Source: Bacteroidales bacterium UBA5219 (GTDB lineage Bacteria > Bacteroidota > Bacteroidia > Bacteroidales > ML635J-15). From it: DNA of 64,000 bases. A model generated the notes under the pieces. That model had not been told where the DNA came from, searched no databases, and saw only the letters and a list, made by a program, of their open reading frames with translations. A program made the position numbers and the translations under genes. Location: assembly GCA_002412425.1 (NCBI GenBank), contig DHVB01000049.1, positions 74,401 through 138,400 on the forward strand. Direction: 5' to 3'. Positions 8,140 through 54,421 of this stretch are shown piece by piece (within the stretch, counting starts at the first letter, position 1; every line of letters begins with the position of its first letter).

Positions 8140-8196
8140 GTAAAATCAACGCATGTGTTGATTCTACAACATGCTATATAATTTATTAAAAATCAA

Positions 8197-8253
8197 ACTT
8201 TCGACTTTCGACTTTTAACACTTCAACTACGTTCAGTGCATCGCCTTTAACTG
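8197..8253 (-). repeat. 57-nt dispersed repeat, copy 1 (contains the antiporter stop codon)
   Basis: The reverse complement reads CAGTTAAAGGCGATGCACTGAACGTAGTTGAAGTGTTAAAAGTCGAAAGTCGAAAGT. It is 54/57 identical to 17575-17631. Confidence 0.9.
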
Positions 8254-10406
8254 TTTTGTTCTTCTTCTTCAGATTTAACAAAAATCTTCCCTATCCCCTT
8301 TCCGATATTTTCTATAGCCTCAATACCTTTTGTCAATGGATTATTTGCAAGGTCGTCATACTGAGCTATAGAGCCTTCTATTTGCTGTGGGAAAATTACA
8401 ATTCTGTTATATTCAGAATAATATCTTTCTATTTTGCTGAAAATATTTTCAAAATATGGCACATAAGAAAACGAATTTCTTCTTGCCGATGCAACAATCA
8501 TAAGGTCGTCTTTTTCAATATATCTTGCTAAAATTAAAAAATCTTCCCATTCGCTAAACTCGCTAAACTCGATTTTTACATTAAATTTATTCTTTTTTAC
8601 GAGAGTTTTTAGGCTTTTATCAACTTCTTCGGTGCCAAAATGAAGTATTTGTGCCGACAGTTCCGAAGCAAGTTTAAGCACTTTTTCTGTCCACAATTTA
8701 AAACCTTTTTCTTTATTTGCTAAATGAGGTGTAACTAAAATAATCCTTTTATTGGCAACAAAAGCATTTTCAAGAGAAGTAACAAAAACGTTTTTATTTC
8801 CCGAATAAATAATTTTATTCACTCTCTCTCCAGCTAGTTTATTGATAATGCCAGCTTTACCGGGCCAACCAAGGATTAGAATATCTGCCATCATTTCTTT
8901 TGACACGCGTGAAATTCCACTAACGACATTATAGTCAATGCTTGTAATTGCGTTTACTTCTACTTCGGCAGCAGCGCCATATTTTATAAAATCTTCTAAT
9001 TTCTCTTTTGTTTTTAAAAGATTTTGCTCAGCATTAGAATCATTTTGAATAATTGATAAAAGAGATATTGGTCTTGATGATTTTAAGTTTTTTATCAATA
9101 CTGCAAACTCTAAAAGCTTTGGCACAGAAGCTAAGTTGGCAACTGGTATAAGTATATGCTCGGCAAATTTATTATAAGCTTTTTCACCAATTTGACTATC
9201 TTCTTCGGTTAAAGCCAAAGTTTTAGCTGCTCTTTCGGTTACAAATGAAGCTATTATACAAGAAACTAAAATTAGAATAATTGTACCGTTAAGAATATTG
9301 TCGTCTAAAATTCCTATTCTATAGCCCACTAAAATTACTGCCAAAGTTGCGGCTGCGTGTGAAGTTGACAAGCCAAAAATTAATTGTCTTTGAGTTCCAG
9401 AATATCTAAAAATTACTTGAGTTAAAAAAGCTGCTATCCATTTTCCAAAAACAGCACCAACAATCAAAACTCCAGCAACAATAGCTGCACCCCAACCTTG
9501 AACAACAACGCTTACATCTACTATCATTCCCACCGAAATTAAAAAGAAAGGAATAAACAAAGCATTTCCGCTAAATTCTATTCTATTCATCAAAGCAGAT
9601 GTTTTTGGAATTATAGGATTCAGAGCTAAACCAGCAACAAAAGCCCCAATAATTGGTTCTAAACCACTTATTTCGGCTAAGAAAGCTGCAAAAAACAAAA
9701 CTGATAAAGCAAATATAAAATGAGCATGTTTTTCGCTTTCTAATTTTGAGAAAAACCATCTCGCAACTTTTGGAACAAGGAAAAACATGATTATTAAAAA
9801 CAAAACAAAACAAATTCCCAATCTAATAAAAAACTCTTGGTCTAAGCTACCTTGTGTATTTCCAATTATAATGGCTAAAATCAACAAAACAGCAGTATCG
9901 GTAAAAATTGTACCACCTACAGTTACAGCAACAGCTTCGTTTTTAGTTACGCCAAGTTTGCTAACTATAGGATAAGCAACCAAAGTGTGAGTAGCAAACA
10001 TGCTTGCGGTCAACACACTTGCATTAATGCCATAGCCCAAAACATAATGACACAAAGCATAGCCTATTGCAAATGGAAAAATAAAAGTAAACACACCAAA
10101 GGTTAAACTTTTATATTTATTCATTTTAAATTGAGCCAAATTTAGCTCCAAACCAGCAACAAACATTATATATAGCAAACCTATGGTAGAGAATAGCTCT
10201 ATAGCACTATTATTGGCTATAATATTAAAGCCATAAGGACCGATAATTATACCAGAAATTATTAATCCTATTATTCCGGGAATTTTGAACCTTTGCAATA
10301 AAATTGGCGAAAGTAAAATTATAAAAAGAATAACAGAAAACACTAAAATAGGATTACTCAAAGGAAGAGTAAATTCTGCTAATAACTCGCTAAAAAATTC
10401 TTGCAT
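8247..10406 (-). CDS. Cation:proton antiporter (CPA family) with C-terminal cytoplasmic USP-like regulatory region
   Basis: About 400 aa of 11-13 TM helices typical of Na+/H+ or K+/H+ exchangers, followed by about 300 aa of soluble domain. The stop codon lies inside repeat copy 8197-8253. Confidence 0.85.
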   Translation of the reverse strand: MQEFFSELLAEFTLPLSNPILVFSVILFIILLSPILLQRFKIPGIIGLIISGIIIGPYGFNIIANNSAIELFSTIGLLYIMFVAGLELNLAQFKMNKYKSLTFGVFTFIFPFAIGYALCHYVLGYGINASVLTASMFATHTLVAYPIVSKLGVTKNEAVAVTVGGTIFTDTAVLLILAIIIGNTQGSLDQEFFIRLGICFVLFLIIMFFLVPKVARWFFSKLESEKHAHFIFALSVLFFAAFLAEISGLEPIIGAFVAGLALNPIIPKTSALMNRIEFSGNALFIPFFLISVGMIVDVSVVVQGWGAAIVAGVLIVGAVFGKWIAAFLTQVIFRYSGTQRQLIFGLSTSHAAATLAVILVGYRIGILDDNILNGTIILILVSCIIASFVTERAAKTLALTEEDSQIGEKAYNKFAEHILIPVANLASVPKLLEFAVLIKNLKSSRPISLLSIIQNDSNAEQNLLKTKEKLEDFIKYGAAAEVEVNAITSIDYNVVSGISRVSKEMMADILILGWPGKAGIINKLAGERVNKIIYSGNKNVFVTSLENAFVANKRIILVTPHLANKEKGFKLWTEKVLKLASELSAQILHFGTEEVDKSLKTLVKKNKFNVKIEFSEFSEWEDFLILARYIEKDDLMIVASARRNSFSYVPYFENIFSKIERYYSEYNRIVIFPQQIEGSIAQYDDLANNPLTKGIEAIENIGKGIGKIFVKSEEEEQNS

Positions 10407-10432
10407 TATAAAAAATTGCTATTTAGTTTTTG

Positions 10433-10440
10433 CAAAAATA
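10433..10440 (-). promoter_or_regulatory. Candidate -7 box (TATTTTTG) for the antiporter gene
   Basis: Matches TAnnTTTG on the minus strand, 27 nt upstream of the ATG at 10406. Confidence 0.35.
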
Positions 10441-10450
10441 AAAAAATAAA

Positions 10451-10556
10451 TCAGTTAAAAGTTAAAAGAGTTTTTAGTGTTTAGTTTTTAGTGTTTAGTC
10501 TATTGCTCAAACGGATTTAACTTTACGAACTTTAAAACTTTTTAACTTTTAACTGA
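10451..10556 (+). repeat. Mosaic word-doublet element with 18-bp terminal inverted repeats
   Basis: TCAGTTAAAAGTTAAAAG (10451-10468) faces CTTTTTAACTTTTAACTGA (10538-10556). The interior has GTTTTTAGTGTTTAG x2 and AACGGATTTAACTTTACGAACTTTAAAAC. Confidence 0.85.
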
Positions 10557-10566
10557 TTTGATTGTG

Positions 10567-10661
10567 TTGCCCTTACGGGCAAGGCTTTTGAGGGTCTAAC
10601 TACCGCAGGCTACGCCTACGGTTAATCACATATTGCCCTACGGGCAAACCTTTGAGAATCT
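10567..10661. repeat. Cluster of three GC-rich palindromic units (REP/BIME-like) in an AT-rich spacer
   Basis: The units are TTGCCC-TTAC-GGGCAA (10567-10582), ACCGCAGGC-TAC-GCCTACGGT (10602-10622, one mismatch) and TTGCCC-TAC-GGGCAA (10633-10647). Units 1 and 3 share the flank CTTT(T)GAG(G/A)(G/A)TCT. Confidence 0.7.
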
Positions 10662-10663
10662 TG

Positions 10664-10703
10664 ACGTTGCGACAAAATTAAATACTGTTTTAAAAATTAT
10701 TTT
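10664..10703 (+). repeat. Direct-repeat module, copy A (abuts the higA stop)
   Basis: ACGTTGCGACAAAATTAAATACTGTTTTAAAAATTATTTT. About 36/40 identical to 11390-11429. Confidence 0.75.
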
Positions 10704-10711
10704 GGAATTTT

Positions 10712-10990
10712 TTAAACTGGATTTATTTGTATTTGTCCACCAATTGCTCTTAAAATTTTCATAATTGTTTCAAATCTAGGATTAGAACCTTCTGATAATG
10801 CTTTATACAAACTTGATCTGCTTAATCCTGTTTCTTTAGCAATTTTTGTCATGCCCATTGATTTTGCGACATGTCCAATTGCTACAATTACGTCTGAGTC
10901 ATCACCTTCTGCTAAAACAGTATTAAGATATTCTGCAATCATCTCATTACTGTCTAAATAATCTGCTATGTCAAATTTTGAGGTTTCCAT
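10712..10990 (-). CDS. higA: Addiction-module antidote protein, HigA family (HTH)
   Basis: 92 aa. Conserved N-terminal DIADYLDSNEMIAEYLN and the HTH segment GMTKIAKETGLSRSSLYKALS. Begins 5 nt downstream of the toxin gene. Confidence 0.8.
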   Translation of the reverse strand: METSKFDIADYLDSNEMIAEYLNTVLAEGDDSDVIVAIGHVAKSMGMTKIAKETGLSRSSLYKALSEGSNPRFETIMKILRAIGGQIQINPV

Positions 10991-10995
10991 TATAT

Positions 10996-11295
10996 TTATT
11001 CTTTAAGTTTTTTCAAAATATTTTTAGCTTTATTTATGTCTTTCTGCTGAGTTGATTTTTCTCCACCAATGAGTAAAATAATAATTTTCCCATCTGATTC
11101 TTTAAAATATATTCTATATCCTTTAGCATAGTCAATTTTTAGTTCCCTAATTCCATCACCAACATGTTTACAATCTCCAAAATGTTCATCTTCTTCAATC
11201 TTTTGAATGCGAAACAATATTATGGCTTTTGCTTTTAAGTCTCTTAATTTTCTTAGCCACTTATCGAAATCAGATGTCTTATAAATTATATACAT
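10996..11295 (-). CDS. higB: Addiction-module killer protein (HigB-like, RelE/ParE superfamily)
   Basis: About 99 aa from the ATG at 11295 (MYIIYKTSDFDKWLRKL...GDGIRELKIDYAKGYRIYF...IILLIGGEKSTQQKDI). Toxin-first order is typical of higBA. Confidence 0.8.
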   Translation of the reverse strand: MYIIYKTSDFDKWLRKLRDLKAKAIILFRIQKIEEDEHFGDCKHVGDGIRELKIDYAKGYRIYFKESDGKIIILLIGGEKSTQQKDINKAKNILKKLKE

Positions 11296-11324
11296 ACATT
11301 TCTCCAAACGTCTCCATTCGGATA

Positions 11325-11356
11325 CAAAATTACATAATATTTTTATTTAAAACAAA
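11325..11356 (-). promoter_or_regulatory. Full-consensus Bacteroidota promoter for higBA (-33 TTTG / -7 TAATTTTG, 20-nt spacer)
   Basis: The minus strand reads TTTG-ttttaaataaaaatattatg-TAATTTTG. The -7 box ends 30 nt upstream of the higB ATG (11295). Confidence 0.5.
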
Positions 11357-11363
11357 TATTTAT

Positions 11364-11380
11364 TGCAAATCCGTGCAAAT
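11364..11380. promoter_or_regulatory. Direct repeat TGCAAAT-N3-TGCAAAT just upstream of the higBA -33 element (candidate antitoxin operator)
   Basis: TGCAAAT occurs at 11364-11370 and 11374-11380, a 10-bp phasing. Confidence 0.3.
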
Positions 11381-11389
11381 TACAGATAG

Positions 11390-11454
11390 ATGTTGCGACA
11401 AAAATAGACACTGTTTTAAAAATTATTTTTGATTTTAAATAAATTGGCATTGTT
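11390..11454 (+). repeat. Direct-repeat module, copy B (upstream of the higB promoter)
   Basis: ATGTTGCGACAAAAATAGACACTGTTTTAAAAATTATTTTTGATTTTAAATAAATTGGCATTGTT. Confidence 0.75.
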
Positions 11455-11511
11455 AATTAATATTTATATCATGAAACTAACAAAGGTGTCTTAGAAGTGT
11501 TCAAATGCACA

Positions 11512-11603
11512 TCAGTTAAAAGTTAAAAGTTAAAAAGTTAAAAGAGGCTGACGCGTCTATAGCATGAACGGATTTAACTTTATGAACTTTAAAAACTTTT
11601 AAC
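11512..11603 (+). repeat. Mosaic word-doublet element
   Basis: TCAG(TTAAAAG)x4, then GAGGCTGACGCGTCTA, then AACGGATTTAACTTTATGAACTTTAAAAACTTTTAAC. Shares its left and right modules with 10451-10556 and its centre with 43993-44074. Confidence 0.85.
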
Positions 11604-12577
11604 TATTTTATCGCTTCGATAGAAAATAGAAACCCCTTATGAATAGGATTAAGCTTATCTTCCCACAATGCAGGGCTAATGCTTTGGAAAGCTTGAGTAA
11701 AATAGACTTCAGAAAATCCAAGATTTTTTATATATGCAAACAATTCTTCTTTTGAGAAATAGTCTGCATTATGCTGATATGATTCTTTTTTATTTTCGTC
11801 AACGAAATTTAAAACGTTTTTATAAAAAGTTTCCACATTTCCTGTATCACAGTCGTTTAGGCTTGCTCTTAAATCGGGAGATTTTGCATACAAATTATCC
11901 ATAGCTGCTACGGCGTTATGGTAAAGAAAAGTATTTTCCGAATTAAAAACTAATTCTTCTGAGTTTACCAAACTTTTTATAACATATTCGTTTTTATCGT
12001 TAAATGTGGCTTTAACTCTGCCTTTATGATTTTTTATAAAATTATTTAATTTTTCTTTTGACTCTCTACATTCAAATGGTGCTTTTGGAGTAATTAAATG
12101 ATTTTTATAAAGCTTGTATGAATAATCATAACAATGAACTTTTGAGTGAAAAACTCCACCTTTTTTCAAAATCCTATATGCTTCTTTGCATAAATTTTTA
12201 GTAGCATCAATTGATATATGTTCTATTACAAAAGAATTAAAAACAACTTCGGCATGATTATCTGGTAAAGGTATTGGAGCTAAAGATTCCAAATCATAAA
12301 ATATATCTATTCCTTCTTTGCTATATTTACTTGCTTCTAAGTCGATATATGTCCATATATCATATTTGCTTCGTTGAGAACCTGCACCTATATTATAAAA
12401 TCTCTTTTCTTTTAAACTCTCTTCGCTATAAACACTGTGAATATATTGCTCTAAGAAATTTATCTCCATCAATTTTTGCTTTACAAAAGGAATTCTTGAA
12501 AAAAATATTTCAAAAAATTTCCTAAAAAACTTGGAATGCTTTATAAGAGCAATACTTACAAATCTTATTTTACTCAT
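11603..12577 (-). CDS. Putative class I SAM-dependent methyltransferase-like protein
   Basis: 324 aa. Weak motif I (FYNIGAGSQ) and a Methyltransf_11-like post-I region (VVFNSFVIEHIS...EAYRILKKGGVF). The start is uncertain, with an alternative Met 36 codons in. Confidence 0.45.
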   Translation of the reverse strand: MSKIRFVSIALIKHSKFFRKFFEIFFSRIPFVKQKLMEINFLEQYIHSVYSEESLKEKRFYNIGAGSQRSKYDIWTYIDLEASKYSKEGIDIFYDLESLAPIPLPDNHAEVVFNSFVIEHISIDATKNLCKEAYRILKKGGVFHSKVHCYDYSYKLYKNHLITPKAPFECRESKEKLNNFIKNHKGRVKATFNDKNEYVIKSLVNSEELVFNSENTFLYHNAVAAMDNLYAKSPDLRASLNDCDTGNVETFYKNVLNFVDENKKESYQHNADYFSKEELFAYIKNLGFSEVYFTQAFQSISPALWEDKLNPIHKGFLFSIEAIK

Positions 12578-12676
12578 TTTATCAAAACTATTTTCGAGAA
12601 TTTTTCACAAAATTAAAATAATTATTGCAAAGCCATAAATAATTAGAAAATAATATTTTTGTGTTTATTTTTTTAA

Positions 12677-12684
12677 TAGATTTG
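12677..12684 (+). promoter_or_regulatory. Candidate -7 box (TAGATTTG) for the 12693 methyltransferase gene
   Basis: Exact TAnnTTTG, 8 nt before the ATG, which implies a very short leader. Confidence 0.3.
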
Positions 12685-12692
12685 TAAAAAAT

Positions 12693-13706
12693 ATGAAAAT
12701 TATGCTTAGTCCAAGATTTAAAAACGATGGTAAACCTATTTACAAACTAAACGAAATACAATTACAAGCAAAAGCCGATGTAGAACTAAAAATAGAAAAA
12801 GGACAATACGAGTTCGAAGAAGTAAACTGTGCTGCTTGCAAAAGCAAAGAACATGAACTGCTTGCCGAAAAAGATAGATACGGACTAACATACTATACTG
12901 TAATTTGCAAAAATTGCGGATTAGTTTATGTGTCTCCAAGAATGACTGAAAAAGCATATGCAGAATTTTATAATGCTGAATACAGAAAATTGTACATAGG
13001 AGTTGAAGCTCCTAGAGCTAAATTTTTTATTAAACAAACAAATAGAGGAAAAAGAATCCTTAAATTTGTAAACAAGCATTATAAATTCAATAATAAAACT
13101 ATTGATGTTTTAGAAGTTGGTTGCGGTGCTGGCGGAATTTTAGAAGTATTTAAACAAGCAGGACACAATGTAGTTGGTATAGATTTAGATGAAAAATATT
13201 TGAATTATGGTAAAGAAAAGTTTGGATTAAATTTAATTAGTTCAACTATAAATGACTTAGATGAAAATATTAAGGCAGACCTTATAATTTATGCTCATGT
13301 GTTAGAACACATATTAGATTTAGACAAAGAACTTGCTATGATAAAAAAACATCTAAAGCCAGACGGAATTGTTTATATTGAAGTTCCAGGTGTAAGATAT
13401 GTTCATAAAACAAGTGAAATGGATTTTTTGAAATATTTACAAAATGCTCATGTTTTTCACTTCTCTCTTAATTCATTAAATCGAATATTTTATAATAACG
13501 GATTTAAAAACATTTGTGGAAATGAATATATTAGAGCTTTATACAAACAATGTGATAAAAAACAAGACATAGCCTACACAAATGAATACAGTAAAGTTCT
13601 TAACTATTTAACAAAAACTGAGAAAAATTTATATTCATTTATATTTTGGATAAAAAAACCTTTTTGGATAATCAAAAAACTTTATAAAAAATATATAAAA
13701 GAATAA
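12693..13706 (+). CDS. Class I SAM-dependent methyltransferase with N-terminal Cys4 zinc-ribbon
   Basis: CAAC...CKNC zinc ribbon. Motif I VLEVGCGAGGILE, acidic GIDLD, and IIYAHVLEHI...LKPDGIVYIEVP. Confidence 0.75.
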   Translation: MKIMLSPRFKNDGKPIYKLNEIQLQAKADVELKIEKGQYEFEEVNCAACKSKEHELLAEKDRYGLTYYTVICKNCGLVYVSPRMTEKAYAEFYNAEYRKLYIGVEAPRAKFFIKQTNRGKRILKFVNKHYKFNNKTIDVLEVGCGAGGILEVFKQAGHNVVGIDLDEKYLNYGKEKFGLNLISSTINDLDENIKADLIIYAHVLEHILDLDKELAMIKKHLKPDGIVYIEVPGVRYVHKTSEMDFLKYLQNAHVFHFSLNSLNRIFYNNGFKNICGNEYIRALYKQCDKKQDIAYTNEYSKVLNYLTKTEKNLYSFIFWIKKPFWIIKKLYKKYIKE

Positions 13707-13727
13707 CTCCATTTAAATAATATTGTT

Positions 13728-13735
13728 TATATTTG
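13728..13735 (+). promoter_or_regulatory. Candidate -7 box (TATATTTG) for the YWTD gene
   Basis: Exact TAnnTTTG, 22 nt before the ATG at 13758. Confidence 0.35.
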
Positions 13736-13757
13736 TAGTAGATTAAAACTTGTTATT

Positions 13758-14858
13758 ATGAGAGCATTATTTCTTTCATTATTCATAATAGTTTCGTGCT
13801 CTGCGTTTTCACAACCAATGCTTGATTCTGTTGAATATATTTATTGGGGAGACCACTCTGGAGGCACAATTAACAAAGCTAAACTTGATGGCTCTGATGT
13901 TCAAACCTTAGTTAGTGGTGATTATCAAATAAGAAGAGTTAGACTTGATAGAAAAAATAGAAAAATTTATTGGGCTAGCGGACTTTATGCAGCTATTCGT
14001 TCTGCAAACTATGATGGTACTGAAGTTACTACAGTTTTGCCAACATCTAACCAAATAGGTGTAATTGAAGTTGACCAAAAAAATAAGCGACTTTATTTTA
14101 CCGAAGACAATAGTGGAATGATTAAAAGATGCAAAATTGATGGAACAAGCTTAGAAACAATTGTTACCGGAACTGGCTTGGTTTTAGGAATGGCTGTTGA
14201 CACTTTACATGATATACTTTTCTGGGGAGATTATACAAATAAAAAAATATTTAAGGCTAATACAGATGGCACTAATATTGTTGAAATTCATAATTCCAAC
14301 CTTAAAATTTATGACCTATATATTGATGTTAAACGCAATTATGTTTATTTTAATAATAGAACAAATAACTCAATTCAAAGAATTGATTATTACGGAAATG
14401 GTCTAACAGATATTATTCAATGTTGTAGCAATAATTGTGTTGTCGGCTCTTTGGCTGTTAGTGTAGAATATAACTTTCTTTTCTGGATTGAAAGAGAAAA
14501 TGGTATTTTAGCAAGAAGTAATGCCAATGGTGAAGACAGAACAGATATAATATATGTTCCTGGATCTAATTTTTCAGGAATGGACATAGGCAAAGAATAT
14601 TTAACCCATGTAAAAGTAGATGAAAATAAGTTGAAACAAATTAAAATTTATCCCAATCCTTGTTCAAACCAGTTTTTTGTTGACGCAGAAATAAATTCTG
14701 ATGTTTCTATTTATAATTTATATGGGCAAAAAATTAAAACTTCAAAACTAACTAGCTCTAAATCAATAGATATTGACGAACTACCCACAGGAATTTATTT
14801 TGTAGAAGTAAAAAACGAGAATGATGTGTTTAAGCAAAAAATTCAAGTTGCAAAATAA
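13758..14858 (+). CDS. Secreted six-bladed YWTD (LDL-receptor class B) beta-propeller with T9SS C-terminal sorting domain
   Basis: Signal peptide. Six YWTD-type blades: IYWGDHSGGTINKAKLDGS, KIYWASGLYAAIRSANYDGT, RLYFTEDNSGMIKRCKIDGT, ILFWGDYTNKKIFKANTDGT, YVYFNNRTNNSIQRIDYYGN, FLFWIERENGILARSNANGE. CTD KIYPNPCSNQFFV...GIYFVEV. Confidence 0.7.
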   Translation: MRALFLSLFIIVSCSAFSQPMLDSVEYIYWGDHSGGTINKAKLDGSDVQTLVSGDYQIRRVRLDRKNRKIYWASGLYAAIRSANYDGTEVTTVLPTSNQIGVIEVDQKNKRLYFTEDNSGMIKRCKIDGTSLETIVTGTGLVLGMAVDTLHDILFWGDYTNKKIFKANTDGTNIVEIHNSNLKIYDLYIDVKRNYVYFNNRTNNSIQRIDYYGNGLTDIIQCCSNNCVVGSLAVSVEYNFLFWIERENGILARSNANGEDRTDIIYVPGSNFSGMDIGKEYLTHVKVDENKLKQIKIYPNPCSNQFFVDAEINSDVSIYNLYGQKIKTSKLTSSKSIDIDELPTGIYFVEVKNENDVFKQKIQVAK

Positions 14859-14926: not shown

Positions 14927-14934
14927 TAAATTTG
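14927..14934 (+). promoter_or_regulatory. Candidate -7 box (TAAATTTG) for the transglutaminase-like gene
   Basis: Exact TAnnTTTG, 20 nt before the ATG at 14955. Confidence 0.35.
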
Positions 14935-14954: not shown

Positions 14955-17633
14955 ATGAGAAATTTAGTTTTTAGTTTTCTTATCCTTTTTATGTTTTCAT
15001 CTTGTTTAAAAAGGGTTGAAGTTATTGAACCAAGTCAGTTTGAGTTAAATTATAACGACAAACTTGCCTTTGCAGAGGCAATAGGAAGTGATTTTTTTGA
15101 AAAATTAGAAAATTACAAATCCGACAGTTTAGTGTATCAAGATTTACAATATCTGTTTACCTACATGCCACTTAGTGATTTTGCGGATTATGATTTTGAG
15201 TTCTTTTTAAATCAAGTAAAATATGCACATTTAATAAAAGAAACTTTTCCTTGGGCAAAAGATATTCCGCAAGATATTTTTAGACATTACGTTTTACCTC
15301 ACCGAGTTAACAACGAAAACTTAGACACTGCTCGCATGGTTTTTTATCGTGAACTTAAAGACAGACTGCTTCCTTTAAATTTAACTGCCGAAGAAGCTGC
15401 TTTGGAAGTAAACCATTGGTGTCACGAAAAAGTAATTTATAAACCTACTGATGCAAGAACAATTTCTCCTCTTGGTGCTGTTCGTTCTGGCTTTGGTCGC
15501 TGTGGCGAAGAAAGTACTTTTACTGTTACAGCATTAAGAGCTGCGGGCATTCCTGCACGACAAGTTTACACGCCACGCTGGGCACATACAGACGACAACC
15601 ACGCTTGGGTAGAAGTTTGGATTGATGGAGAATGGAAATATCTTGGAGCTTGCGAACCACTACCCAGACTAAATAGGGGTTGGTTTACTGTGTCTGCAAC
15701 AAGAACAATGTTAGTGCACACAAAACAGTTTGGACAAGATGATGAAGAAAGTTCAAACTACCTTGGAAGTAATGCAAATTATACTTGGGTAAATGCTATG
15801 AAAACTTATGCTCCAACAAAAAATTTAATAATACTTGTTGTAAATAAAAACAATATGCCTGTTTGGAATGCTGAAGTAAGATTTCAATTATATAATTATG
15901 CAGAAATGTACCCATTGCATACTGCCAAAACAAATATTAATGGAATGGCAAAATTTACAACAGGATACGGTAGTTTAGAAGTTTCTGTAAGCTACAAAGA
16001 CAAAACAATTAGTAAAACAATAAATCCACAAGATGAAAACATAATTACACTAAATATTGATACAGACCCAAAATTTCCAGCAGAAAATGTTGTGTATTAT
16101 CCACCAGTAGCAGGCGAAAACCACATAATCGATCCTGAGGAAGAAAAACTAAATAACGAAAGACTAAAACAAGAAGATAAAATTAGAGCTAACAACGAAA
16201 GTTCGTATTACAACCAGTCTAAAACAAAAGATTTTATAAAAGCATTTGACTATCCCGAAAGTGTAGCAGAAATTCTTATTGGTAGCAAAGGAAATTGGAT
16301 GGAAATAGAAGCTTTTTTAATAGAAGCAAGCTATAAAAATTGTAAAAATGAAGCTCTAGCACTTCTTACTGAATTATCAGAAAAAGATTGGAGAGATACA
16401 AAAAAGGAAATTTTATCTAAACATTGCGAATTGGCTATTAAACACAGAAACAGCAATTTAGCTGATAGTATATTCAATAAGTATGTGCTTAACCCACGAA
16501 TACATTTTGAACTATTAACAAATTACAGACCTGCCATTTTAGAAAGTTTAACCGATGAAAACATAAAAAACTTTAAATCAAATCCTGAAAAAATATATCA
16601 ATACATTTCAGAAAATATTAAAACACAATTTAATATTAATGGCAAAAATATTGATGTTCAAGACTTTAATAATTACAACGTAAGTATTACGCCACTTGGT
16701 GTAAATAAAGTTAAACATGCTGACCCATTGTCGCTTAAAATTTATACTGTTGCTTTTTGTCGAAGCTTAGGTATTCCTGCACAAATAAATTTAGCAAGCA
16801 ATTTTGCACAATATTTTCACAATAATGAATGGGTAGATTTTAATTTTGATAAAGCCAAAGTTGAAAAAGCTAAATTATTCTTCACAAATCCCGATACTAC
16901 AAGAGATCTAAAATATAGAGTTCATTTTGCAATAGCAAGATTAGAATCAGGATTTTTCAACACTGTTGACTTGGGCTGGGAAATTCCAATTAGCGATTTT
17001 TCTGACGGAATAGAAGTTTTGGACGGAAAATACATGCTTCTTACTGCATATAGAAATTCTGACGAAAGTGTTAGTGTAAATAGAAAATATTTTGATTTGA
17101 AAGCAAACGAAACAAAAACAATAGAAGTTACAATACCTGAAGATAATAGTATTTCACTAAATATTAAAGCCTTCGTTCATGGCAATTTAACTGATAATCA
17201 AACAAATAGCCTCATCGACAGTAAATTAATTTGCAAAGAAAATACTGCAACTGCTTTTTGTTGGATAAATCCTACGCAAGAACCATCAAAACACATAATT
17301 AGAGATATTAATTTAGGTTTAAATAACTTAAAAAACAACAAAATAAATGTTGTTTTTATAACTGATGGTTCTGAAATTCAAGGACTTTCTAAAGAAATCC
17401 CAACTTATACTGACAAAAATTTTGAATTGCTAAATAAAAACTCAGCTTGCTCACTTAGTGCAAATAGCAATGTATTTCCAAATATAATGTTAGTTAGCAA
17501 TAATAATTGCATATTTTCAAGTAAGGGGTATATAATTAATGTTAGTGAGATATTAATTAATGAATGGAAAAAATCAGTTAAAAGCGATGCACTGAACGTA
17601 GTTGAAGTGTTAAAAGTTAAAAGTCGAAAGTAA
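14955..17633 (+). CDS. Transglutaminase-like (Cys-His-Asp core) lipoprotein
   Basis: Lipoprotein signal (LFMFSSC) from the ATG at 14955. Transglutaminase core [25 protein letters not shown]...[22 protein letters not shown]. The last 16 codons are encoded by repeat copy 17575-17631. Confidence 0.75.
17575..17631 (+). repeat. 57-nt dispersed repeat, copy 2 (encodes the last 16 codons of the transglutaminase-like gene)
   Basis: CAGTTAAAAGCGATGCACTGAACGTAGTTGAAGTGTTAAAAGTTAAAAGTCGAAAGT. Same orientation relative to its host gene as copy 1. Confidence 0.9.
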
Positions 17634-32369: not shown

Positions 32370-32601
32370 GTTTTAACACTTCTGAAACACCTTGAAAACT
32401 TGCTGGTTTAACAAATCCGAGCGAGCGTCATGGGTGTTGAAGCGAGCAGAGTGAGCAAAGCGAAGTCTGCGAAGCAAACCCAAGCGAGCAAAGCGAGCAA
32501 ATAATTCTTAATTATCGGGTGTTGAGCGAAGCCGAGACACAATTCTTAATTCTTAATTCATCTTCATACTCAACACTAAAAACTCTTTTAACTTTCAACT
32601 G
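32370..32601 (-). repeat. Mosaic word-doublet element (long variant), filling the glycogen-gene/folP convergent gap and the folP 3' end
   Basis: The minus strand starts CAGTTGAAAGTTAAAAGAGTTTTTAGTGTT, matching 10452-10480. It continues with GAATTAAGAATTAAGAATT, GGGTGTTGA(A)GCGA(A)GC x2 and degenerate GCGAGCAA(A) tandem words. Confidence 0.8.
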
Positions 32602-43263: not shown

Positions 43264-44007
43264 ATGGAAAATTTTATTTTTGGACTACATCCTGTAAACG
43301 AAGCAATTAAATCTGGAAAAGAAATTGATAAAGTTTTGGTTAAAAAAAACTTAACTGGAAATATTGCACTAAAATTAGTTTCAGAAATTCGTCAACAAGG
43401 AATTACTATACAATATGTGCCTCAAGAAAAACTTGATAAAATTTGTAAACACAATCATCAAGGCATAATTGCTTATGTGTCGCCAATTAAATACCAAAAT
43501 TTAGAAGAAGTTATCATCAAAATTCAAGATGAAAATAAAACTCCATTAATAATAATTTTAGATGGAGTTACAGATGTAAGAAATTTTGGAGCTATTGCTC
43601 GCTCTTGCGAATGTGCGGGAGCTTCTGCAATAGTAATTCCAACAAGTGGCAGTGTAAGAATTAGCGATGAAGCAATTAAAACCTCTGCTGGAGCATTGTA
43701 TAATATTCCAATTTGCAAAGTTGAAAATTTAATAGATGCTGTTTTGCTTTTAAATCAAATGAATATTGAAGTTGTTGCTGTTACGGAAAAAGCCGAAAGA
43801 TTAATTTACGAACTCGACCTAACAACAGCTTGTGCTTTAATTTTAGGTGCCGAAGACAAAGGAATTTCAAACTCTCTTATAAAACGAGCCGACAAAAAAG
43901 CCAAAATTCCATTATATGGAAAAACATCTTCTTTAAATGTTTCAGTGTCTGCGGCTTTGGCAGTTTACGAAGCTATACGACAAAGAATGAATTCAGTTGA
44001 AAGTTAA
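43264..44007 (+). CDS. rlmB: 23S rRNA (guanosine-2'-O)-methyltransferase, SpoU/TrmH family (RlmB-like)
   Basis: The start at MENFIFGLHPVNEAIKSG (ATG 43264) avoids a 167-nt overlap with the upstream gene. SpoU motifs LDGVTDVRNFGAIARS, LILGAEDKGIS and SLNVSVSAALAVYE. The stop codon lies inside repeat 43993-44074. Confidence 0.85.
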   Translation: MENFIFGLHPVNEAIKSGKEIDKVLVKKNLTGNIALKLVSEIRQQGITIQYVPQEKLDKICKHNHQGIIAYVSPIKYQNLEEVIIKIQDENKTPLIIILDGVTDVRNFGAIARSCECAGASAIVIPTSGSVRISDEAIKTSAGALYNIPICKVENLIDAVLLLNQMNIEVVAVTEKAERLIYELDLTTACALILGAEDKGISNSLIKRADKKAKIPLYGKTSSLNVSVSAALAVYEAIRQRMNSVES

Positions 44008-44074
44008 AAGTTGAAAGTTAAAAGAGGCTGACGCGTCTAACAAAGTGCGACTTTCGACTTTTAACTTTTAACTC
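43993..44074 (+). repeat. Mosaic word-doublet element forming a 23-24-bp stem, exactly filling the rlmB/Trx-PKD convergent gap
   Basis: TCAGTTGAAAGTTAAAAGTTGAAAGTTAAAAG, then AGGCTGACGCGTCTAACAAAGTGCGA, then CTTTCGACTTTTAACTTTTAACT. The arms pair with only G-U wobbles. It contains the rlmB stop (44005-44007) and abuts the minus-strand gene's stop (44073-44075). Confidence 0.85.
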
Positions 44075-46193
44075 ATCTTATAATGCTGATCTTTTCCGTT
44101 TTAATCTTACCTTTAGTAAATATTCTAGCGTAATAAATTCCTGAAGCAATTCCGTTAGTATTAAATTCAATTACTTCGCTTCCAGCTTCAGCAAATTTCA
44201 TTTGTAGCATTTTTCCTGTTCTGTCAAAAATTTCAACAAAATCGCCTTTATCGAAAGACAATGAGTTCACAATAAACAAATTATCTCCGCATGGATTTGG
44301 ATAAACTGTTATTCCAGTTTCAATTTCTTCGTCTTCAATTCCAACAAGGCAAGTCATTGGTCTTATTCCTGTAGATGTTGAAATTTGATAAGCAGAAGGA
44401 GAAGAATACCATTCTTCGTTTTTATATACAAATAAAGTATTGTCGTTGCCATGTCCTCGATTTGGAGCCATTCCCACTACAAATTCGTCGCCAGCAGCAT
44501 AGTTAATTGAATATCCTAAATAAAATGGACCATCAACTTTAAGAGGCTCGTCAAACATTATTACTTGAAAATAATTTTGTCTCAAAGTTCTCAAAAGCAC
44601 TTTTTGACTTGATAAAACAGTTGTAGGTTTTGGGTCTGCACCATCCCAAGTAATAAATCTAATATAAGCATTATCCGAACCATATGACAATTTCATTACA
44701 GGAACAATAATTCCTCTTATCTCATTAAAAGTATGAAAATCATAATAATCGGCATACATGCTAATTCTATCACTATTTTGTCCGCCATAATAACCTGTCA
44801 TTCCATTTATTTGCATAGCTATTGGTTGTTCGCCTTGTTTAAAATTACCTATTGTATCGCAAACTTCGCCAACAAAAGAGTCGTAAACAACAATATAATC
44901 TTTCTTGGTTAACATCGAAGAACCATTAATATTTCCAACATTTAGAGTAACGTCAAAAAAGCCTGTGTTTTGATAACGAACTCCATTTGGTTGTAATTGA
45001 GTATTAGAGCTTGATGGTTCTCCTCCTTCAAAATACCAAGACCAAAACATTGGATTATTTGTTGATAAATCCTCAAAAAAGACTGGAGTATCACGTTTAA
45101 TCAAGCGATTAGAAGTTGTAAAATTGGCAACAGGAGCATCTGGACCAACTTCTGGAATAACTCTAATGTAATTTTCAATTAACAAAGTATCATAGCCTTG
45201 AGAGTTACGAACAATTAACTGAACATTATATTCACCTGGTGTATTATAAACAATATTTTGAGGATTTTGTGCTGCAGAATTTGCAGGCAAACCACCTTCA
45301 AACTCCCATTTCCATTGGAATGGAAAATCCCAACTTAGGTCTGTAAAGTTTACAGAATTACCAACAATAACAATTACTTGATCAGCAGTAAACCAAGCTG
45401 TTGGAGTAGTATCAGCAATCTCATAAACATGAACATATTTAGTTTTAACTATCTCATCACTATTTCCAAATTCATTTGCAACTTTAAGTTTTACCTTATG
45501 ATAACCAGGAACATTATAAATAATTTCAGGTGGATTTTGACCATTAAAACTATCTGGAGTGCCGTTTTCAAACTCCCAAAGCCAAGTTGCAATAGGATTT
45601 TGCGATAAGTCAGAAAAAATAACTCCTGTATTTACAGGAAGCAACAAAGGGTCGCCAGAAAAATCAGCAATGGGCCAATCTTCTGGACAAGCATTTCTGT
45701 TAATTCCAATTTCTTGAAGACCTTGAACAGTATTTATATCAACTTCTTGGTCATCATCCCAAATAACACTTCTATCTGGTTTAATTAAAATTTTAGTTGG
45801 ATAAGCTTCTATTCCATAATAGTTAACGACAGCACCTCCATGCCCCTCAACAGCACTACAAAGAGGGAAAATAGTATTATGTTCATCTCTATAATTAATA
45901 GCTATTTCATTGGTTACACCCTGAGAAAAAAGACCAAGAACTACTAATTCAAATTCATTACAACCAAAACTTGAATATATATTATTTATCGTCGGGACAG
46001 ACGCAATACAGCCAGATCAACCAGCTAATATAAATTCTATATAAACATGTTTACCTGCATCTAAATAAGTGAAAAGATTATGCTCAACACCATCGAGATC
46101 TGTTATAGTAAAATCCACAGCTTGAGTTGGTTGTTGCGCAAAACTTACGTATGACAAGGCTAACAAAGATAATAAACAAAATAACTTTTTCAT
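44073..46193 (-). CDS. Thioredoxin-fold (TlpA/redoxin-like) + 3x PKD + T9SS sorting-domain protein with one in-frame TGA at the CxxC position (candidate selenoprotein; alternatively a nonsense pseudogene)
   Basis: ORFs 46017-46229 and 44073-45647 are in the same frame (offset 1944 = 3x648). Hand translation of 45648-46016 shows no stop. The reading is MKKLFCLLSLLALSYVSFAQ...GKHVYIEFILAG-TGA-SGCIASVPTINNIY...IEAYPTKILIKPDRSVIWDD, followed by three PKD repeats and the CTD VYPNPCGDNLFIV...GIYYARI. Confidence 0.55.
45990..46003 (-). promoter_or_regulatory. Candidate SECIS-like stem-loop downstream of the in-frame UGA
   Basis: The mRNA reads UGA-UCUGGCUGUAUUG-CGUC-UGUCCC-GACG. This is a 4-bp GC-rich stem with a 6-nt loop containing GU. 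The loop starts 17 nt after the UGA, and weak AU/GU pairing can extend the lower stem. Confidence 0.3.
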
Positions 46194-54289: not shown

Positions 54290-54418
54290 AGTTGAATTAG
54301 TTACCATTCGCTCGATTTTCCCCACACAATCCTATTTCAGATTTTCCTGCACAACCCGCTCGCTCGGTTCAACTTTACGAACTTTATGAACTTTAAAAAC
54401 TTTACAAACTTTTAACTG
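54290..54418 (+). repeat. Mosaic word-doublet element filling the gmk/T9SS-cargo convergent gap
   Basis: CGCTCGCTCGG module (shared with 32370-32601 and 8078-8090), followed by AACTTTACGAACTTTATGAACTTTAAAAACTTTACAAACTTTTAACTG (shared with 10510-10556 and 11567-11603). Confidence 0.8.
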
Positions 54419-54421
54419 TTT

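What the first reader, a model, noticed from the sequence alone, without database searches (positions are those of the whole stretch)
10451..11603. Two copies of a mosaic 'word-doublet' hairpin element bracket the toxin-antitoxin locus
Elements at 10451-10556 and 11512-11603 are in the same orientation and share modules. Both start with TCAG(TTAAAAG)n on the left. Both end with AACGGATTTAACTTTAYGAACTTTAAAA(A)C(T)TTTTAAC on the right. The first has near-perfect 18-bp terminal inverted repeats (10451-10468 and 10538-10556) enclosing GTTTTTAGTGTTTAG x2. The second carries the palindrome-containing centre GAGGCTGACGCGTCTA, which recurs at 44024-44039. Every module is a short word duplicated in tandem (GTTAAAA, GTCGAAA, AACTTTAYG, GTTTTTAGTGTTTAG). 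With five further loci in 64 kb, this is a high-density MITE/REP-like family of unknown mechanism. No transposase or RAYT-like gene is present in the window.
Basis: seen in the sequence. Interest (0 to 1): 0.6.

Follow-up and report, generated by a model that had tools for sequence, protein, structure and literature searches.

The report
Mosaic hairpin repeats flanking a toxin-antitoxin pair
The two elements are real copies of a fast-changing, non-coding hairpin repeat family found at about 100 gene ends in this uncultured Bacteroidales genome; they mark how the toxin-antitoxin genes probably got there but do not move them, and the family is a new variant of known bacterial mosaic repeats.

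Summary
Elements 10451-10556 and 11512-11603 are direct-orientation copies of a dispersed foldback repeat. Its AT-rich arms are tandem heptamers, TCAG(TTAAAAG)n ... (CTTTTAA)nCTGA, around interchangeable GC-richer modules.

The genome (2.8 Mb, 30.6% GC, a Bacteroidales metagenome-assembled genome) has 128 arms at 103 loci. One sister species has about twice as many. The other 23 congeners have almost none.

Arms abut stop codons ten times more often than chance, and full elements fold as long hairpins. Arrays change much faster than point mutations. Strains with 0-1 SNP over 4.5 kb differ in el.2 by a 9-nt unit and by a 25-nt module placed exactly between heptamers. They also differ by a 214-nt MITE next to el.1.

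Window 10449-12600 is a species-specific island: el.1, GC hairpins, higBA, el.2 and a methyltransferase-like gene. The higBA block sits elsewhere in the sister species, in circularly permuted order. The two direct copies are therefore best read as the scar of a circle that recombined with a resident element (inference).

A RAYT with its own REPIN family exists elsewhere in the genome but does not match these elements. No matching transposase, integron integrase or IS110 gene was found.

Verdict: a new variant of NIME/BIME/MITE-like mosaic repeats, of moderate interest.

The parts
10451..10556 (.). el.1: a complete foldback element. Left arm TCAG(TTAAAAG)2 at 10451-10468, two 14-nt E units at 10469-10499, core GTCTATTGCTCAAACGGATTTAACTTTACGAACTTTAAAA, right arm 10538-10556.
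   Evidence: RNA fold -30.4 kcal/mol, z -4.8. A near-identical copy lies at G000 C5:22868. Invariant except for 1 SNP in 10 strains.
10557..10660 (.). GC-rich hairpin cluster (module G): TTGCCCTTACGGGCAA, CCGCAGGCTACGCCTACGG and TTGCCCTACGGGCAA. It travels with el.1-type elements.
   Evidence: Fold z -3.7. 41 G-type and 17 G2-type copies in the genome. The central hairpin (10606-10624) is replaced by a ~214-nt MITE in strains L065 and L071.
10663..10710 (.). Left copy of the ~48-nt direct repeat that flanks higBA (GACGTTGCGACAAAATTAAATACTGTTTTAAAAATTATTTTGGAATTT).
   Evidence: family D12, 88% to 11389-11436. Homologous to the 53-nt repeat at the sister species' higBA insertion and to the empty site at G000 C40:5251-5303.
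10712..10990 (-). higA-like antitoxin gene (92 aa).
   Evidence: PF21716 at 2.2e-44, plus HTH_3.
10996..11307 (-). higB-like toxin gene (Gp49/RelE superfamily). 103 aa from a TTG start; public gene calls give 99 aa.
   Evidence: PF05973 at 1.3e-7. Gene tables.
11389..11454 (.). Right copy of the higBA-flanking direct repeat, with its extension AAATAAATTGGCATTGTT. The extension is also present at 8103-8139.
   Evidence: families D12 and D17.
11485..11508 (+). N-type terminal repeat (GGTGTCTTAGAAGTGTTCAAATGC) of a second, palindromic MITE family. It abuts el.2.
   Evidence: 70 such ends in the genome and about 20 canonical ~146-nt copies.
11512..11603 (.). el.2: heptamer arm (11512-11544), module D1 GAGGCTGACGCGTCTA (11544-11559), then the shared right half. 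Its right end overlaps the TAG stop of the gene at 11603-12577.
   Evidence: Fold z -3.6 and -5.4. Four or more alleles among near-identical strains.
11603..12577 (-). Methyltransferase-like accessory gene. It forms the right-hand part of the species-specific island.
   Evidence: Weak Methyltransf_11 match. Absent at DNA level from G006 and G015.
10449..12600 (.). 2.15-kb island absent from two sister species. In those species the antiporter gene abuts window ~12601 directly.
8197..8253 (-). Family member at the antiporter gene's stop codon: heptamers plus module B.
   Evidence: The sister species lacks B here.
17575..17631 (+). Family member overlapping the end of ORF 14934-17633: heptamer, module B, heptamers.
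   Evidence: The sister species lacks B and one heptamer.
32371..32601 (.). Composite repeat cluster ending in an inverted el.1-type left end (CAGTTGAAAGTTAAAAGAGTTTTTAGTGTTGAG on the minus strand).
   Evidence: The sister species' contigs break here.
43993..44075 (.). Complete foldback element carrying the D1 module. ORF 43093-44007 ends inside its left arm.
   Evidence: Fold -33.3 kcal/mol, z -6.3. The sister species has one heptamer fewer and a 27-nt module C.
54355..54420 (.). Right-arm-only member: 9-nt units AACTTTAYR x4.7, ending CTTTTAACTG.

Best explanation
**What they are**
- el.1 and el.2 belong to a lineage-specific family of non-coding foldback mosaic repeats.
- Each element has AT-rich arms of tandem heptamers: TCAG(TTAAAAG)n on one side and its inverted complement on the other. 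The second arm is often degenerated into 9-nt AACTTTAYR units.
- The arms enclose a variable set of short GC-richer modules.
- The elements lie at the 3' ends of genes, typically starting within 10 nt of the stop codon. They can fold into long hairpins on either strand.

**How they change (shown directly by comparisons)**
1. Units of 7, 9 or 14 nt are gained and lost.
2. A 25-nt module (B) is copied exactly between two heptamers. A 27-nt module (C) is copied inside a heptamer (TTGAA^AG). Neither leaves a target duplication.
3. A separate palindromic MITE family inserts into the clusters.
4. Modules are joined at shared short words such as GTCTATWGC.

**Relation to the toxin-antitoxin pair**
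- The two copies do not form a transposon around higBA.
- Shown: window 10449-12600 is an island absent from two sister species.
- Shown: the higBA block sits at another locus in one sister species, in circularly permuted order.
- Inferred: a circle carrying [element + GC hairpins + higBA] recombined with a resident element at the 3' end of the methyltransferase-like gene. This Campbell-type integration would leave two direct, hybrid copies.
- Inferred: the heptamer runs serve as portable microhomology, or as sites for a recombinase not yet identified. In transcripts the hairpins may act as 3'-end structures.
For: **Family size and distribution**
- 128 arms at 103 loci; 78 of the 128 are preceded by TCA.
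- The heptamer doublet occurs 113 times in G000 and 194 times in the sister species G006. The other 39 relatives have 11 or fewer.
- Module B occurs only in G000 (39 copies), G006 (41 copies) and one Salinivirgaceae contig, out of 185,579 species genomes.

**Position and folding**
- 44 of 128 arms have their outer end within -25..+10 nt of a co-oriented stop codon. The null is 4.3 +/- 2.1, with a maximum of 13 in 1000 trials.
- 31 loci are in convergent and 10 in divergent spacers, against a background of 228 and 259.
- Fold z-scores run from -3.5 to -6.3.

**Turnover between species**
- Flanks are 93-100% identical, yet there are clean 25-nt (B), 27-nt (C), 7-nt and 14-nt indels.
- B is always in the same phase: 36 of 39 copies follow ...AAAG and precede T[TC][AG]AA. 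29 of 39 copies are identical.
- All 22 C copies with readable flanks (of 23; one abuts an assembly gap) lie between GT[TC]GAA and A, 21 of them before AG.

**Turnover within the species**
- Ten assemblies show 0-1 SNP over window 7700-12200.
- They nevertheless carry at least 4 el.2 alleles: B absent, B after heptamer 1, B after heptamer 2, or two copies, plus or minus one 9-mer.
- They also show a MITE presence/absence polymorphism beside el.1.

**Island and permutation**
-. G000 C40:5251-5303 is the empty site of G006's higBA insertion.
- G000's order is el.1-G-DR-higA-higB-DR'-N-el.2. G006's order is DR-higA-higB-pDR-H-G-x-DR.
- el.1's closest relative is the C5:22868 copy, not el.2.
Against: - No mobilising enzyme is identified.
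  - The RAYT's cognate REPIN is a different sequence.
  - There is no integron integrase, no IS110 gene and no rve gene.
  - The four DDE_Tnp_1 genes have unrelated ends.
- The genome is a 91-contig metagenome-assembled genome with N gaps inside these repeats, so a transposase could be missing.
- Most loci are shared by G000 and G006 (10 of 13). Whole-element transposition since their split is therefore barely seen.
- No clean empty site and no target-site duplication was found for a heptamer-armed element.
- The direction of the B and C indels (gain or loss) could not be polarised.
- Some array differences between short-read metagenome assemblies could be assembly errors. However, the alleles recur in independent assemblies, and one lies on a 954-kb contig.
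- The circle is inferred from gene order only.
The RNA role is untested.
- No canonical terminator was predicted at the elements.
Confidence: 0.6

Rival explanations
1. These are classical MITEs. The heptamer-armed hairpins would be cut-and-paste derivatives of an insertion sequence, moved in trans by a transposase that recognises the TCAGTTAAAAG... terminal inverted repeats. On this reading el.1 and el.2 are two independent insertions.
For: - Terminal inverted repeats of 18 nt, small size (median ~102 nt), many copies and hairpin folds.
- A second family with GGTGTYTCAKAAGTG ends is certainly mobile. It is present in 2 of 10 strains at one site and absent or present between the two species.
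- That second family sometimes carries heptamer arms inside it.
Against: - No target-site duplication at el.1 or at any other heptamer element examined.
- No transposase with matching ends among the Y1, IS110, rve and DDE_Tnp_1 genes of G000.
- Loci are mostly orthologous between the two species, while their interiors differ.
- Arms abut stop codons with a precision that random insertion plus selection explains poorly.
Confidence: 0.2
2. These are REP/BIME elements mobilised by the genome's RAYT. On this reading the hairpins and their modules are cleaved and re-joined as single strands by the REP-associated tyrosine transposase.
For: - A RAYT gene exists at G000 C80:33818-34648 (NF047646, 98 bits against a cut-off of 80; HLH and YIHDNP motifs). 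It is flanked by inverted REPs.
- 63 REPs, mostly as REPIN doublets, lie in the same mosaic clusters.
- B and C insert without a target duplication, as Y1 transposases do.
Against: - The cognate REP (GCTCGCTCGGATTTGCAATCCGAGTG; doublet fold z -12.7) is unrelated in sequence to the heptamer arms.
- B and C do not fold (z -0.3 to -1.25).
- Weaker PF01797 (Y1 transposase) matches in single-copy ORFs of similar length occur in many congeners that lack these elements. They may be RAYT-like but were not scored against the RAYT model, so this argument is weak.
- G006, which has the most copies, gives only a sub-threshold Y1 match.
Confidence: 0.1
3. This is an integron-like cassette system. The hairpins would be attC-like recombination sites, and [methyltransferase-like gene + el.2] and [higBA + el.1] would be two captured cassettes.
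For: - Each gene unit in the island is followed by one imperfect inverted repeat that starts at or near the stop codon.
- The island ends exactly at el.1's outer end.
- The heptamers GTTAAAA / TTTTAAC resemble the attC core GTTRRRY / RYYYAAC (from established knowledge of integrons).
- Toxin-antitoxin cassettes are typical of chromosomal integrons.
Against: - The two boxes are in the opposite order to attC: GTT... comes first and ...AAC last.
- No integron integrase was found. The best TIGR02249 score is 127 bits against a cut-off of 265, and the control genomes give similar hits.
- The elements are scattered at about 100 core-gene ends, not in arrays.
- In G006 the hairpin piece lies upstream of higB, not after higA.
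Confidence: 0.05
4. These are selected cis-acting RNA or DNA structures: 3'-end hairpins that terminate transcription, stabilise mRNA or tune translation termination. Repetition would be a by-product.
For: - Tenfold excess at stop codons, enrichment in convergent spacers and depletion in divergent ones.
- Significant folds on either strand.
- Three or more heptamers carry TAA in all frames on both strands (read directly from the sequence).
- REPs close to stop codons are known to affect translation and mRNA decay in E. coli (from my own knowledge; not checked here).
Against: - No Rfam family matched, and no canonical terminator was predicted.
- Content varies among near-identical strains. The elements are absent from 23 congeners that share the same genes.
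- The same locus can have its own terminator in addition.
- This reading explains where the elements sit but not how they spread. It is compatible with the main explanation.
Confidence: 0.15

Closest known systems
Neisserial intergenic mosaic elements (NIMEs: dRS3 repeats flanking RS elements)
   Same: - Short inverted-repeat 'punctuation' units separate many families of short modules.
- Arrays sit beside genes and differ in number and length between strains.
- They contain opportunistic insertions of other repeats.
- They are proposed to promote recombination and capture of array-flanked genes (PMC1797815).
- Here too, a hypervariable gene (window 12200-14000) adjoins the island.
   Different: - The punctuation here is a tandem AT-rich heptamer, not a 20-bp GC-rich dRS3.
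- The whole unit folds as one long hairpin.
- Modules of 25-27 nt sit at fixed positions of the heptamer register.
- The phylum is different (Bacteroidota).
- No dRS3-type recombinase or IS110-like gene is present.
BIMEs / REP and REPIN elements with RAYT (E. coli, Pseudomonas)
   Same: - Mosaic intergenic clusters of small palindromic units lie at 3' ends of genes.
- The genome really has a RAYT flanked by its REPs, and about 30 REPIN doublets lie in the same clusters.
   Different: - The heptamer-armed elements are AT-rich tandem-repeat hairpins, not 20-40-nt GC-rich palindromes.
- Their modules B and C are not palindromic.
- Their sequence is unrelated to the RAYT-flanking REP.
BrickBuilt MITE of Porphyromonas gingivalis (a minisatellite inside a MITE)
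   Same: - It comes from the same order (Bacteroidales).
- It is an intergenic, species-restricted repeat that combines small inverted-repeat ends with an internal tandem repeat.
- It has tens of copies (PMC4596501).
   Different: - BrickBuilt has one 23-nt unit between leader and tail subunits, and lies 49-591 nt from genes.
- Here the tandem units (7 or 9 nt) are themselves the inverted arms.
- The interior here is a mosaic of many modules.
- The elements here touch stop codons.
Intergenic heptanucleotide tandem repeats: TAACTGA repeats, long simple sequence repeats (LSSRs) and cyanobacterial STRR sequences
   Same: - Tandem 7-nt units occur in many intergenic regions and are sporadic across phyla, including some Bacteroidetes.
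- Those Bacteroidetes have 'larger assemblages of heptamer repeats' at which contigs break.
- A role in gene rearrangement has been suspected (PMC4679880).
- The element end CTTTTAACTGA even contains TAACTGA.
   Different: - TAACTGA repeats in Beggiatoaceae lie mostly just upstream of start codons, as direct repeats only.
- Here the arrays are paired as inverted arms, lie at stop codons and host dispersed modules.
- The STRR comparison rests on my own knowledge.
Integron attC sites
   Same: - Imperfect inverted repeats directly after a cassette's stop codon.
- Heptamer boxes similar to GTTRRRY / RYYYAAC.
- Toxin-antitoxin cassettes as typical cargo.
   Different: - The box order is reversed.
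- There is no integron integrase.
- The elements are dispersed, not arrayed.

Membership tests
MITE | Short, non-coding, many copies | tested here: met
   Median length ~102 nt. 128 arms at 103 loci, with only 2 loci inside called ORFs.
MITE | Terminal inverted repeats | tested here: met
   el.1 has 18/19-nt ends, and the element at 43993-44075 has 25-bp arms.
MITE | Target-site duplication at the flanks | tested here: not met
   None at el.1 (AAA|TCAG...CTGA|TTT against the empty sites of G006 and G015). None at the other loci compared.
MITE | A related autonomous IS with the same ends | tested here: not met
   No transposase lies between inverted ends in G000. The four DDE_Tnp_1 genes have other ends. 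Caveat: this is a draft metagenome-assembled genome.
MITE | Presence/absence polymorphism of whole elements | tested here: inconclusive
   It is seen for the GGTGTYTCAKAAGTG-ended family. For heptamer-armed elements, 10 of 13 and 9 of 11 mapped loci are occupied in both species, and no clean empty site was found.
REP/BIME (RAYT-associated) | A RAYT gene in the genome, flanked by its cognate REPs | tested here: met
   C80:33818-34648; NF047646 at 98 bits (cut-off 80), with inverted REPs on both sides.
REP/BIME (RAYT-associated) | The element is, or contains, the RAYT's cognate GC-rich palindrome | tested here: not met
   el.1 and el.2 contain no CTCGGATTNNNAATCCGAG. Their arms are AT-rich heptamers.
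Integron attC | An integron integrase (IntI) is present | tested here: not met
   The best TIGR02249 score is 127 bits against a cut-off of 265. All 14 control genomes give similar sub-threshold hits.
Integron attC | R''(RYYYAAC) ... R'(GTTRRRY) order, with clustered arrays of cassettes | tested here: not met
   The order here is GTTAAAA...TTTTAAC on both strands. The loci are dispersed.
NIME-like mosaic arrays | Short repeats punctuating many unrelated module families, with arrays that vary between strains | tested here: met
   Module catalogue, punctuation by heptamer doublets and variation. Membership by descent is excluded: the sequence and the phylum are different.
Simple heptanucleotide LSSR | Tandem 5-11-nt units longer than chance, changing by slippage | tested here: met
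   Unit numbers run from 2 to 9. Changes of +/-1-3 units occur between species and strains. This does not account for the identical 25-27-nt modules at 23-39 unlinked loci.
Curated RNA family (Rfam) | A match to a covariance model | tested here: not met
   No hit at gathering thresholds in the whole window. Only miRNA-hairpin noise at E 0.16-0.89.

The most novel reading that the evidence does not exclude
The heptamer runs may be landing pads of an undescribed site-specific system. It would place 25-27-nt non-palindromic modules at one fixed position of the 7-nt register without a target duplication; these would be the smallest mobile DNA units known. The same system would capture circular gene cassettes such as higBA, making it a hairpin-based gene-capture platform in Bacteroidales that is distinct from integrons, RAYTs and IS110-type recombinases.
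Probability: 0.12. Interest if true: 0.8.

Novelty: new variant of a known kind. Interest (0 to 1): 0.45.

Why it matters
- **Repeat layering.** One small genome of an uncultured Bacteroidales lineage carries a layered set of short repeats: heptamer-armed hairpins, 25-27-nt modules, a palindromic MITE, and REPINs with their RAYT. Together they make up about 1.3% of the genome.
- **Speed of change.** These repeats change while the surrounding 4.5 kb collects no point mutation.
- **Strain markers.** This makes them sensitive strain markers in the many metagenomes in which this organism was assembled.
- **Assembly breaks.** They also explain why assemblies of this clade break at these sites.
- **Accessory gene entry.** They offer a concrete case of how accessory genes (a toxin-antitoxin pair and a methyltransferase-like gene) may enter a chromosome at repeat elements.
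- **If the fixed-phase module insertion is enzymatic,** it would point to a new kind of DNA recombination activity.

Tried and rejected
- **Rfam.** The whole window at gathering thresholds gave nothing. The region at E<=1 gave only let-7/mir-type hairpin noise.
- **'Multi-copy gene' ending ...GTACACTTGA before heptamers.** I suspected a transposase. It is only a 26-codon frame inside a MITE.
- **The only >600-nt high-copy region, C39:1-1095.** It is a CRISPR array, not an IS.
- **k=13 repeat map.** Useless in a 30% GC genome. k=16 worked.
- **RAYT as the mobiliser.** A RAYT was found, but its cognate REP is different, and B and C do not fold.
- **Integron reading.** No IntI, and the box order is wrong.
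- **Other transposases.** IS110 and rve are absent. The DDE_Tnp_1 genes have unrelated ends.
- **ORFs between distant MITE ends.** They look like ordinary genes by eye (SPFH-like, DUF58-like, sugar kinase-like, ParA/MinD-like, KilA-N-like). This was not run against Pfam.
- **Viral contigs.** None holds module B or the MITE end.
- **Terminator scan.** No canonical terminator at the elements.
- **The long-contig genome behind locus L065.** It could not be searched.
- **The look-up of encoding contigs with the 103-aa HigB.** Not on record, because the public gene call starts elsewhere.
- **el.1 and el.2 as recent duplicates of each other.** Rejected. Their right halves are 85% identical, while el.1 is nearly identical to a copy on contig C5.
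Full report

Yes.
- Both elements start with TCAG followed by TTAAAAG units.
- Both end with AACGGATTTAACTTTAYGAACTTTAAAA...CTTTTAAC. That 28-mer occurs exactly twice in the window, against 0 in 100 shuffles.
- GAGGCTGACGCGTCTA recurs at 44024-44039.
- The heptamer doublet has 15 matches against 1.7 expected.
- One small correction: the internal unit of el.1 has a 14-nt period, not 15.

**2. What the family looks like genome-wide**

The window is C91:74401-138400 of a 2.80-Mb, 30.6% GC, 91-contig assembly.

Size and shape of the family:
- Runs of two or more GT[TC][AG]AAA units give 128 arms at 103 loci.
- 78 arms are preceded by TCA. Unit numbers run from 2 to 9.
- About 42 elements have an arm followed by an inverted end within 420 nt, with a median length of 102 nt.

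Recurring modules between or beside the arms:

| Module | Sequence or description | Copies |
|---|---|---|
| B | CGATGCACTGAACGTAGTTGAAGTG | 39 |
| C | CCGAGYTTRCGAGCTCACCGAAGGTAA | 23-26 |
| D1 | GGCTGACGCGTCTA | 31 |
| E | GAGTTTTTAGTGTTGAG | 44 |
| G | GC hairpins TTGCCCTACGGGCAA | 41 |
| Right end | TTTATRAACTTTTAACTG | 69 |

All such repeats together cover about 37 kb, or 1.3% of the genome.

Position and folding:
- 44 of 128 arms have their outer end within -25..+10 nt of a co-oriented stop codon. The null is 4.3 +/- 2.1, with a maximum of 13 in 1000 trials.
- Loci are enriched in convergent spacers (31) and depleted in divergent ones (10). The background is 228 and 259.
- Complete elements fold as long hairpins on either strand, with z from -3.5 to -6.3.
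- Because 7 is not a multiple of 3, three units carry TAA in all three frames, and on both strands (read from the sequence).

**3. Who has it**
- The heptamer doublet occurs 113 times here and 194 times in one sister species (G006). The other 39 relatives searched have 11 or fewer.
- Module B is found only in these two genomes and on one contig of a 'Salinivirgaceae bacterium' metagenome-assembled genome, among 185,579 species genomes.
- G006 is 'Bacteroidales bacterium AMR_MDS_4088'.
- The family is therefore young and lineage-specific.

**4. How it changes: species level**

At orthologous loci of G000 and G006 the flanks are 93-100% identical, but the arrays differ by clean indels.

Module B (25 nt, exactly between two heptamers):
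- Present at the window's 8.2k and 17.6k loci and absent in G006.
- Conversely, G006 has two B copies where G000 C58:8022 has none. The heptamer number there is unchanged.

Module C (27 nt, inside a heptamer at TTGAA^AG):
- Absent from the window's 44k element and present in G006.

Smaller units:
- One to three heptamers, or one 14-nt E unit, are gained or lost.

Placement:
- B is always in the same phase and orientation. 36 of 39 copies follow ...AAAG and precede T[TC][AG]AA. 29 of 39 copies are identical.
- The 22 C copies with readable flanks (of 23) always split a heptamer at the same point.
- Neither B nor C folds significantly (z -0.3 to -1.25).

Locus occupancy:
- Most loci are occupied in both species: 10 of 13, and 9 of 11 in the reverse mapping.
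- The arrays are therefore older than the split, while their contents are in flux.

**5. How it changes: strain level**

The exact HigA protein is encoded on many public contigs. Nine places from different samples have the same gene order.
- Over window 7700-12200 they differ from G000 by 0-1 SNP.
- Yet el.2 exists in at least four forms:
  - without B (G000, L066, L067, L070, L073);
  - with B after the first heptamer (L065, L069);
  - with B after the second heptamer (L071, L072);
  - with two copies (L068).
- One 9-nt unit is also present or absent in el.2.
- el.1 itself is invariant except for one SNP.
- The central GC hairpin beside el.1 (10606-10624) is replaced in L065 and L071 by a ~214-nt MITE.
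- These alleles recur in independent assemblies. One (L065) lies on a 954-kb contig, which argues against pure assembly error.

**6. A second, truly mobile MITE family**
- The inserted MITE ends in GGCGGTGTCTCATAAGTGTCAAACTGC and GCATTTTAACACTTCTGAAACACC.
- The genome has 70 such ends and about 20 canonical ~146-nt palindromic copies.
- Some copies carry heptamer arms and B or C inside them.
- el.2 is directly preceded by one such end (11485-11508).
- G006 has a 243-nt composite copy after a stop codon where G000 has none.

**7. Candidate mobilisers**

- Strong IS200-like PF01797 hits are common in relatives. G000 has a single 33-bit hit.
- That gene (C80:33818-34648) is a genuine RAYT:
  - NF047646 scores 98 bits against a cut-off of 80;
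  - it carries HLH and YIHDNP motifs;
  - it gives a weak match to PDB 4ER8.
- It is flanked by inverted copies of GCTCGCTCGGATTTGCAATCCGAGTG.
- 63 such REPs, mostly as REPIN doublets (fold z -12.7), are scattered in the same mosaic clusters.
- This is a separate system, because the heptamer elements do not contain that palindrome.
- Other searches were negative:
  - no integron integrase;
  - no IS110;
  - no rve;
  - four DDE_Tnp_1 genes whose inverted ends are unrelated;
  - ORFs lying between distant MITE ends look like ordinary genes by eye, though they were not scanned against Pfam.
- The assembly is a draft, so absence is weak evidence.

**8. The toxin-antitoxin context**

Gene identities:
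- 10712-10990(-) is a HigA-like antidote (PF21716 at 2e-44, plus an HTH).
- 10996-11307(-) is Gp49/HigB-like.
- 11603-12577(-) is a weak methyltransferase-fold gene.
- 8247-10406(-) is a Na+/H+ exchanger.

The island:
- In G006 and G015 the exchanger gene abuts window ~12601 directly.
- Window 10449-12600 is therefore an island specific to this species, and el.1's outer TCAG is exactly its left edge.

higBA in the sister species:
- higBA with its ~50-nt flanking repeat (94% identical) lies elsewhere in G006, after a 5'-nucleotidase-like gene.
- G000 C40:5251-5303 is the corresponding empty site, with a single copy of the 53-nt sequence.
- The order in G006 is DR-higA-higB-partial DR-element piece-GC hairpin-DR.
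- The order in G000 is el.1-GC hairpins-DR-higA-higB-DR'-MITE end-el.2.
- These two orders are circular permutations of one another.

Reading:
- el.1 is closest to a copy on contig C5, including the adjoining GC hairpin, and not to el.2.
- el.2 joins module D1 to the el.1-type right half at the shared word GTCTATWGC.
- The simplest reading, which is inference, is that a circle carrying element + hairpins + higBA recombined with a resident element at the 3' end of the methyltransferase-like gene. This leaves two direct hybrid copies.
- Each copy ends up at the 3' end of a transcription unit. el.2 overlaps the TAG of the methyltransferase-like gene. el.1 and the hairpins follow higA.

**9. Function**
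- Untested.
- Rfam gives nothing, and no canonical terminator is predicted.
- Placement at stop codons and the hairpin folds are compatible with a 3'-end RNA role. However, content varies among near-identical strains, and the elements are absent from congeners with the same genes.
- Any such role is therefore secondary to their spread.

**10. Comparison with known systems**
- The closest analogue in organisation and proposed role is the neisserial intergenic mosaic element: short inverted repeats punctuating more than 100 module families, dynamic arrays, and proposed capture of array-flanked genes (PMC1797815).
- E. coli BIMEs and REPINs are the analogue for the GC hairpin layer, which is really present here with its RAYT.
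- BrickBuilt of Porphyromonas gingivalis is a Bacteroidales MITE with an internal minisatellite (PMC4596501).
- Heptamer tandem repeats, including assemblages in some Bacteroidetes at which contigs break, were described by MacGregor (PMC4679880).
- None of these combines tandem-heptamer inverted arms, stop-codon abutment and fixed-phase 25-27-nt modules.
- I therefore class this as a new variant of a known kind.

**11. Verdict**
- Observation: confirmed.
- Interpretation: partly supported.
- Confidence that this is a dispersed, rapidly evolving, non-coding mosaic foldback family: high, about 0.85.
- Confidence in the circle-integration origin of the two direct copies: moderate, about 0.4-0.5.
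- Confidence in the whole explanation: 0.6.
- Interest: 0.45.

Noticed in passing
G000 C80:33818-34648 (outside the window): A REP-associated tyrosine transposase gene (NF047646, 98 bits), interrupted by an assembly gap. It is flanked by inverted REPs GCTCGCTCGGATTTGCAATCCGAGTG. The genome holds 63 such REPs, mostly as REPIN doublets with fold z -12.7. This is a RAYT/REPIN system in a Bacteroidales genome.
   Followed up: partly
window 12200-14000: Strains that are identical over window 7700-12200 differ by 7-34% here, across the 5' part of the methyltransferase-like gene, the second methyltransferase gene and the start of the YWTD propeller gene. This looks like an allele replacement hot spot right beside the island.
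   Followed up: partly
window 10606-10624; loci L065 and L071: A ~214-nt palindromic MITE with ends GGCGGTGTCTCATAAGTG... and ...CACTTCTGAAACACC replaces the central GC hairpin in 2 of 10 near-identical strains. The family has 70 ends in G000.
   Followed up: partly
G000 C40:5251-5303; L009 (G006 C13:30702-34444): This is the empty site and the filled site of the higBA block. In G006 an 825-nt segment (higBA plus an element piece plus a GC hairpin) sits between two copies of a 53-nt sequence. That sequence includes the last codons of a 5'-nucleotidase-like gene, and an AbiE toxin-antitoxin pair lies next to it.
   Followed up: partly
window 8084-8139: A solo copy of the higBA-flanking repeat (ATGTTGCAACAAAATA...AAATAAATTGGCATTGTT) lies downstream of the exchanger gene with no toxin-antitoxin genes nearby. 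The motif ATGTTGCRACRAAAT has 11 copies in the genome.
   Followed up: no
G000 C39:1-1095 (outside the window): A CRISPR array with a 47-nt repeat (GTTGTGAATTGGTTTCAAAATTTTGTATCTTTGTGGTCTGAAACAGT) and about 14 spacers, at a contig end.
   Followed up: no
G006 C26:4105-6051 (L035): The sister species has two extra ~830-nt copies (81-82% identical) of the first part of the YWTD propeller gene (window 14001-14843). It lacks the methyltransferase gene at 12693-13706.
   Followed up: no
G000 C9:68404 and C64:32577; strain insert in L065: Some MITE copies carry, just inside one end, a ~26-nt insert (TTTACTTCAACTTCGTTCAGCAACCAC). It shares ACTTCAACTWCGTTCAG with module B, so B-like modules also occur outside heptamer runs.
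   Followed up: no
G006 C42:9445-9502, C53:15840-15897, C75:8298-8355, C4:29559-29616: Module B plus one heptamer occurs as a 32-nt tandem unit in the sister species. The module can therefore also be amplified locally.
   Followed up: no
G000 C81:779-2513 and C40:3-1672: Two apparently complete insertion sequences with DDE_Tnp_1 transposases and their own inverted ends (TCGRCAMTTTTARCCTGAATWATTCATAAA; TCCTGTTTTCCGCA...GGGACACCC). They are unrelated to the repeats studied.
   Followed up: partly
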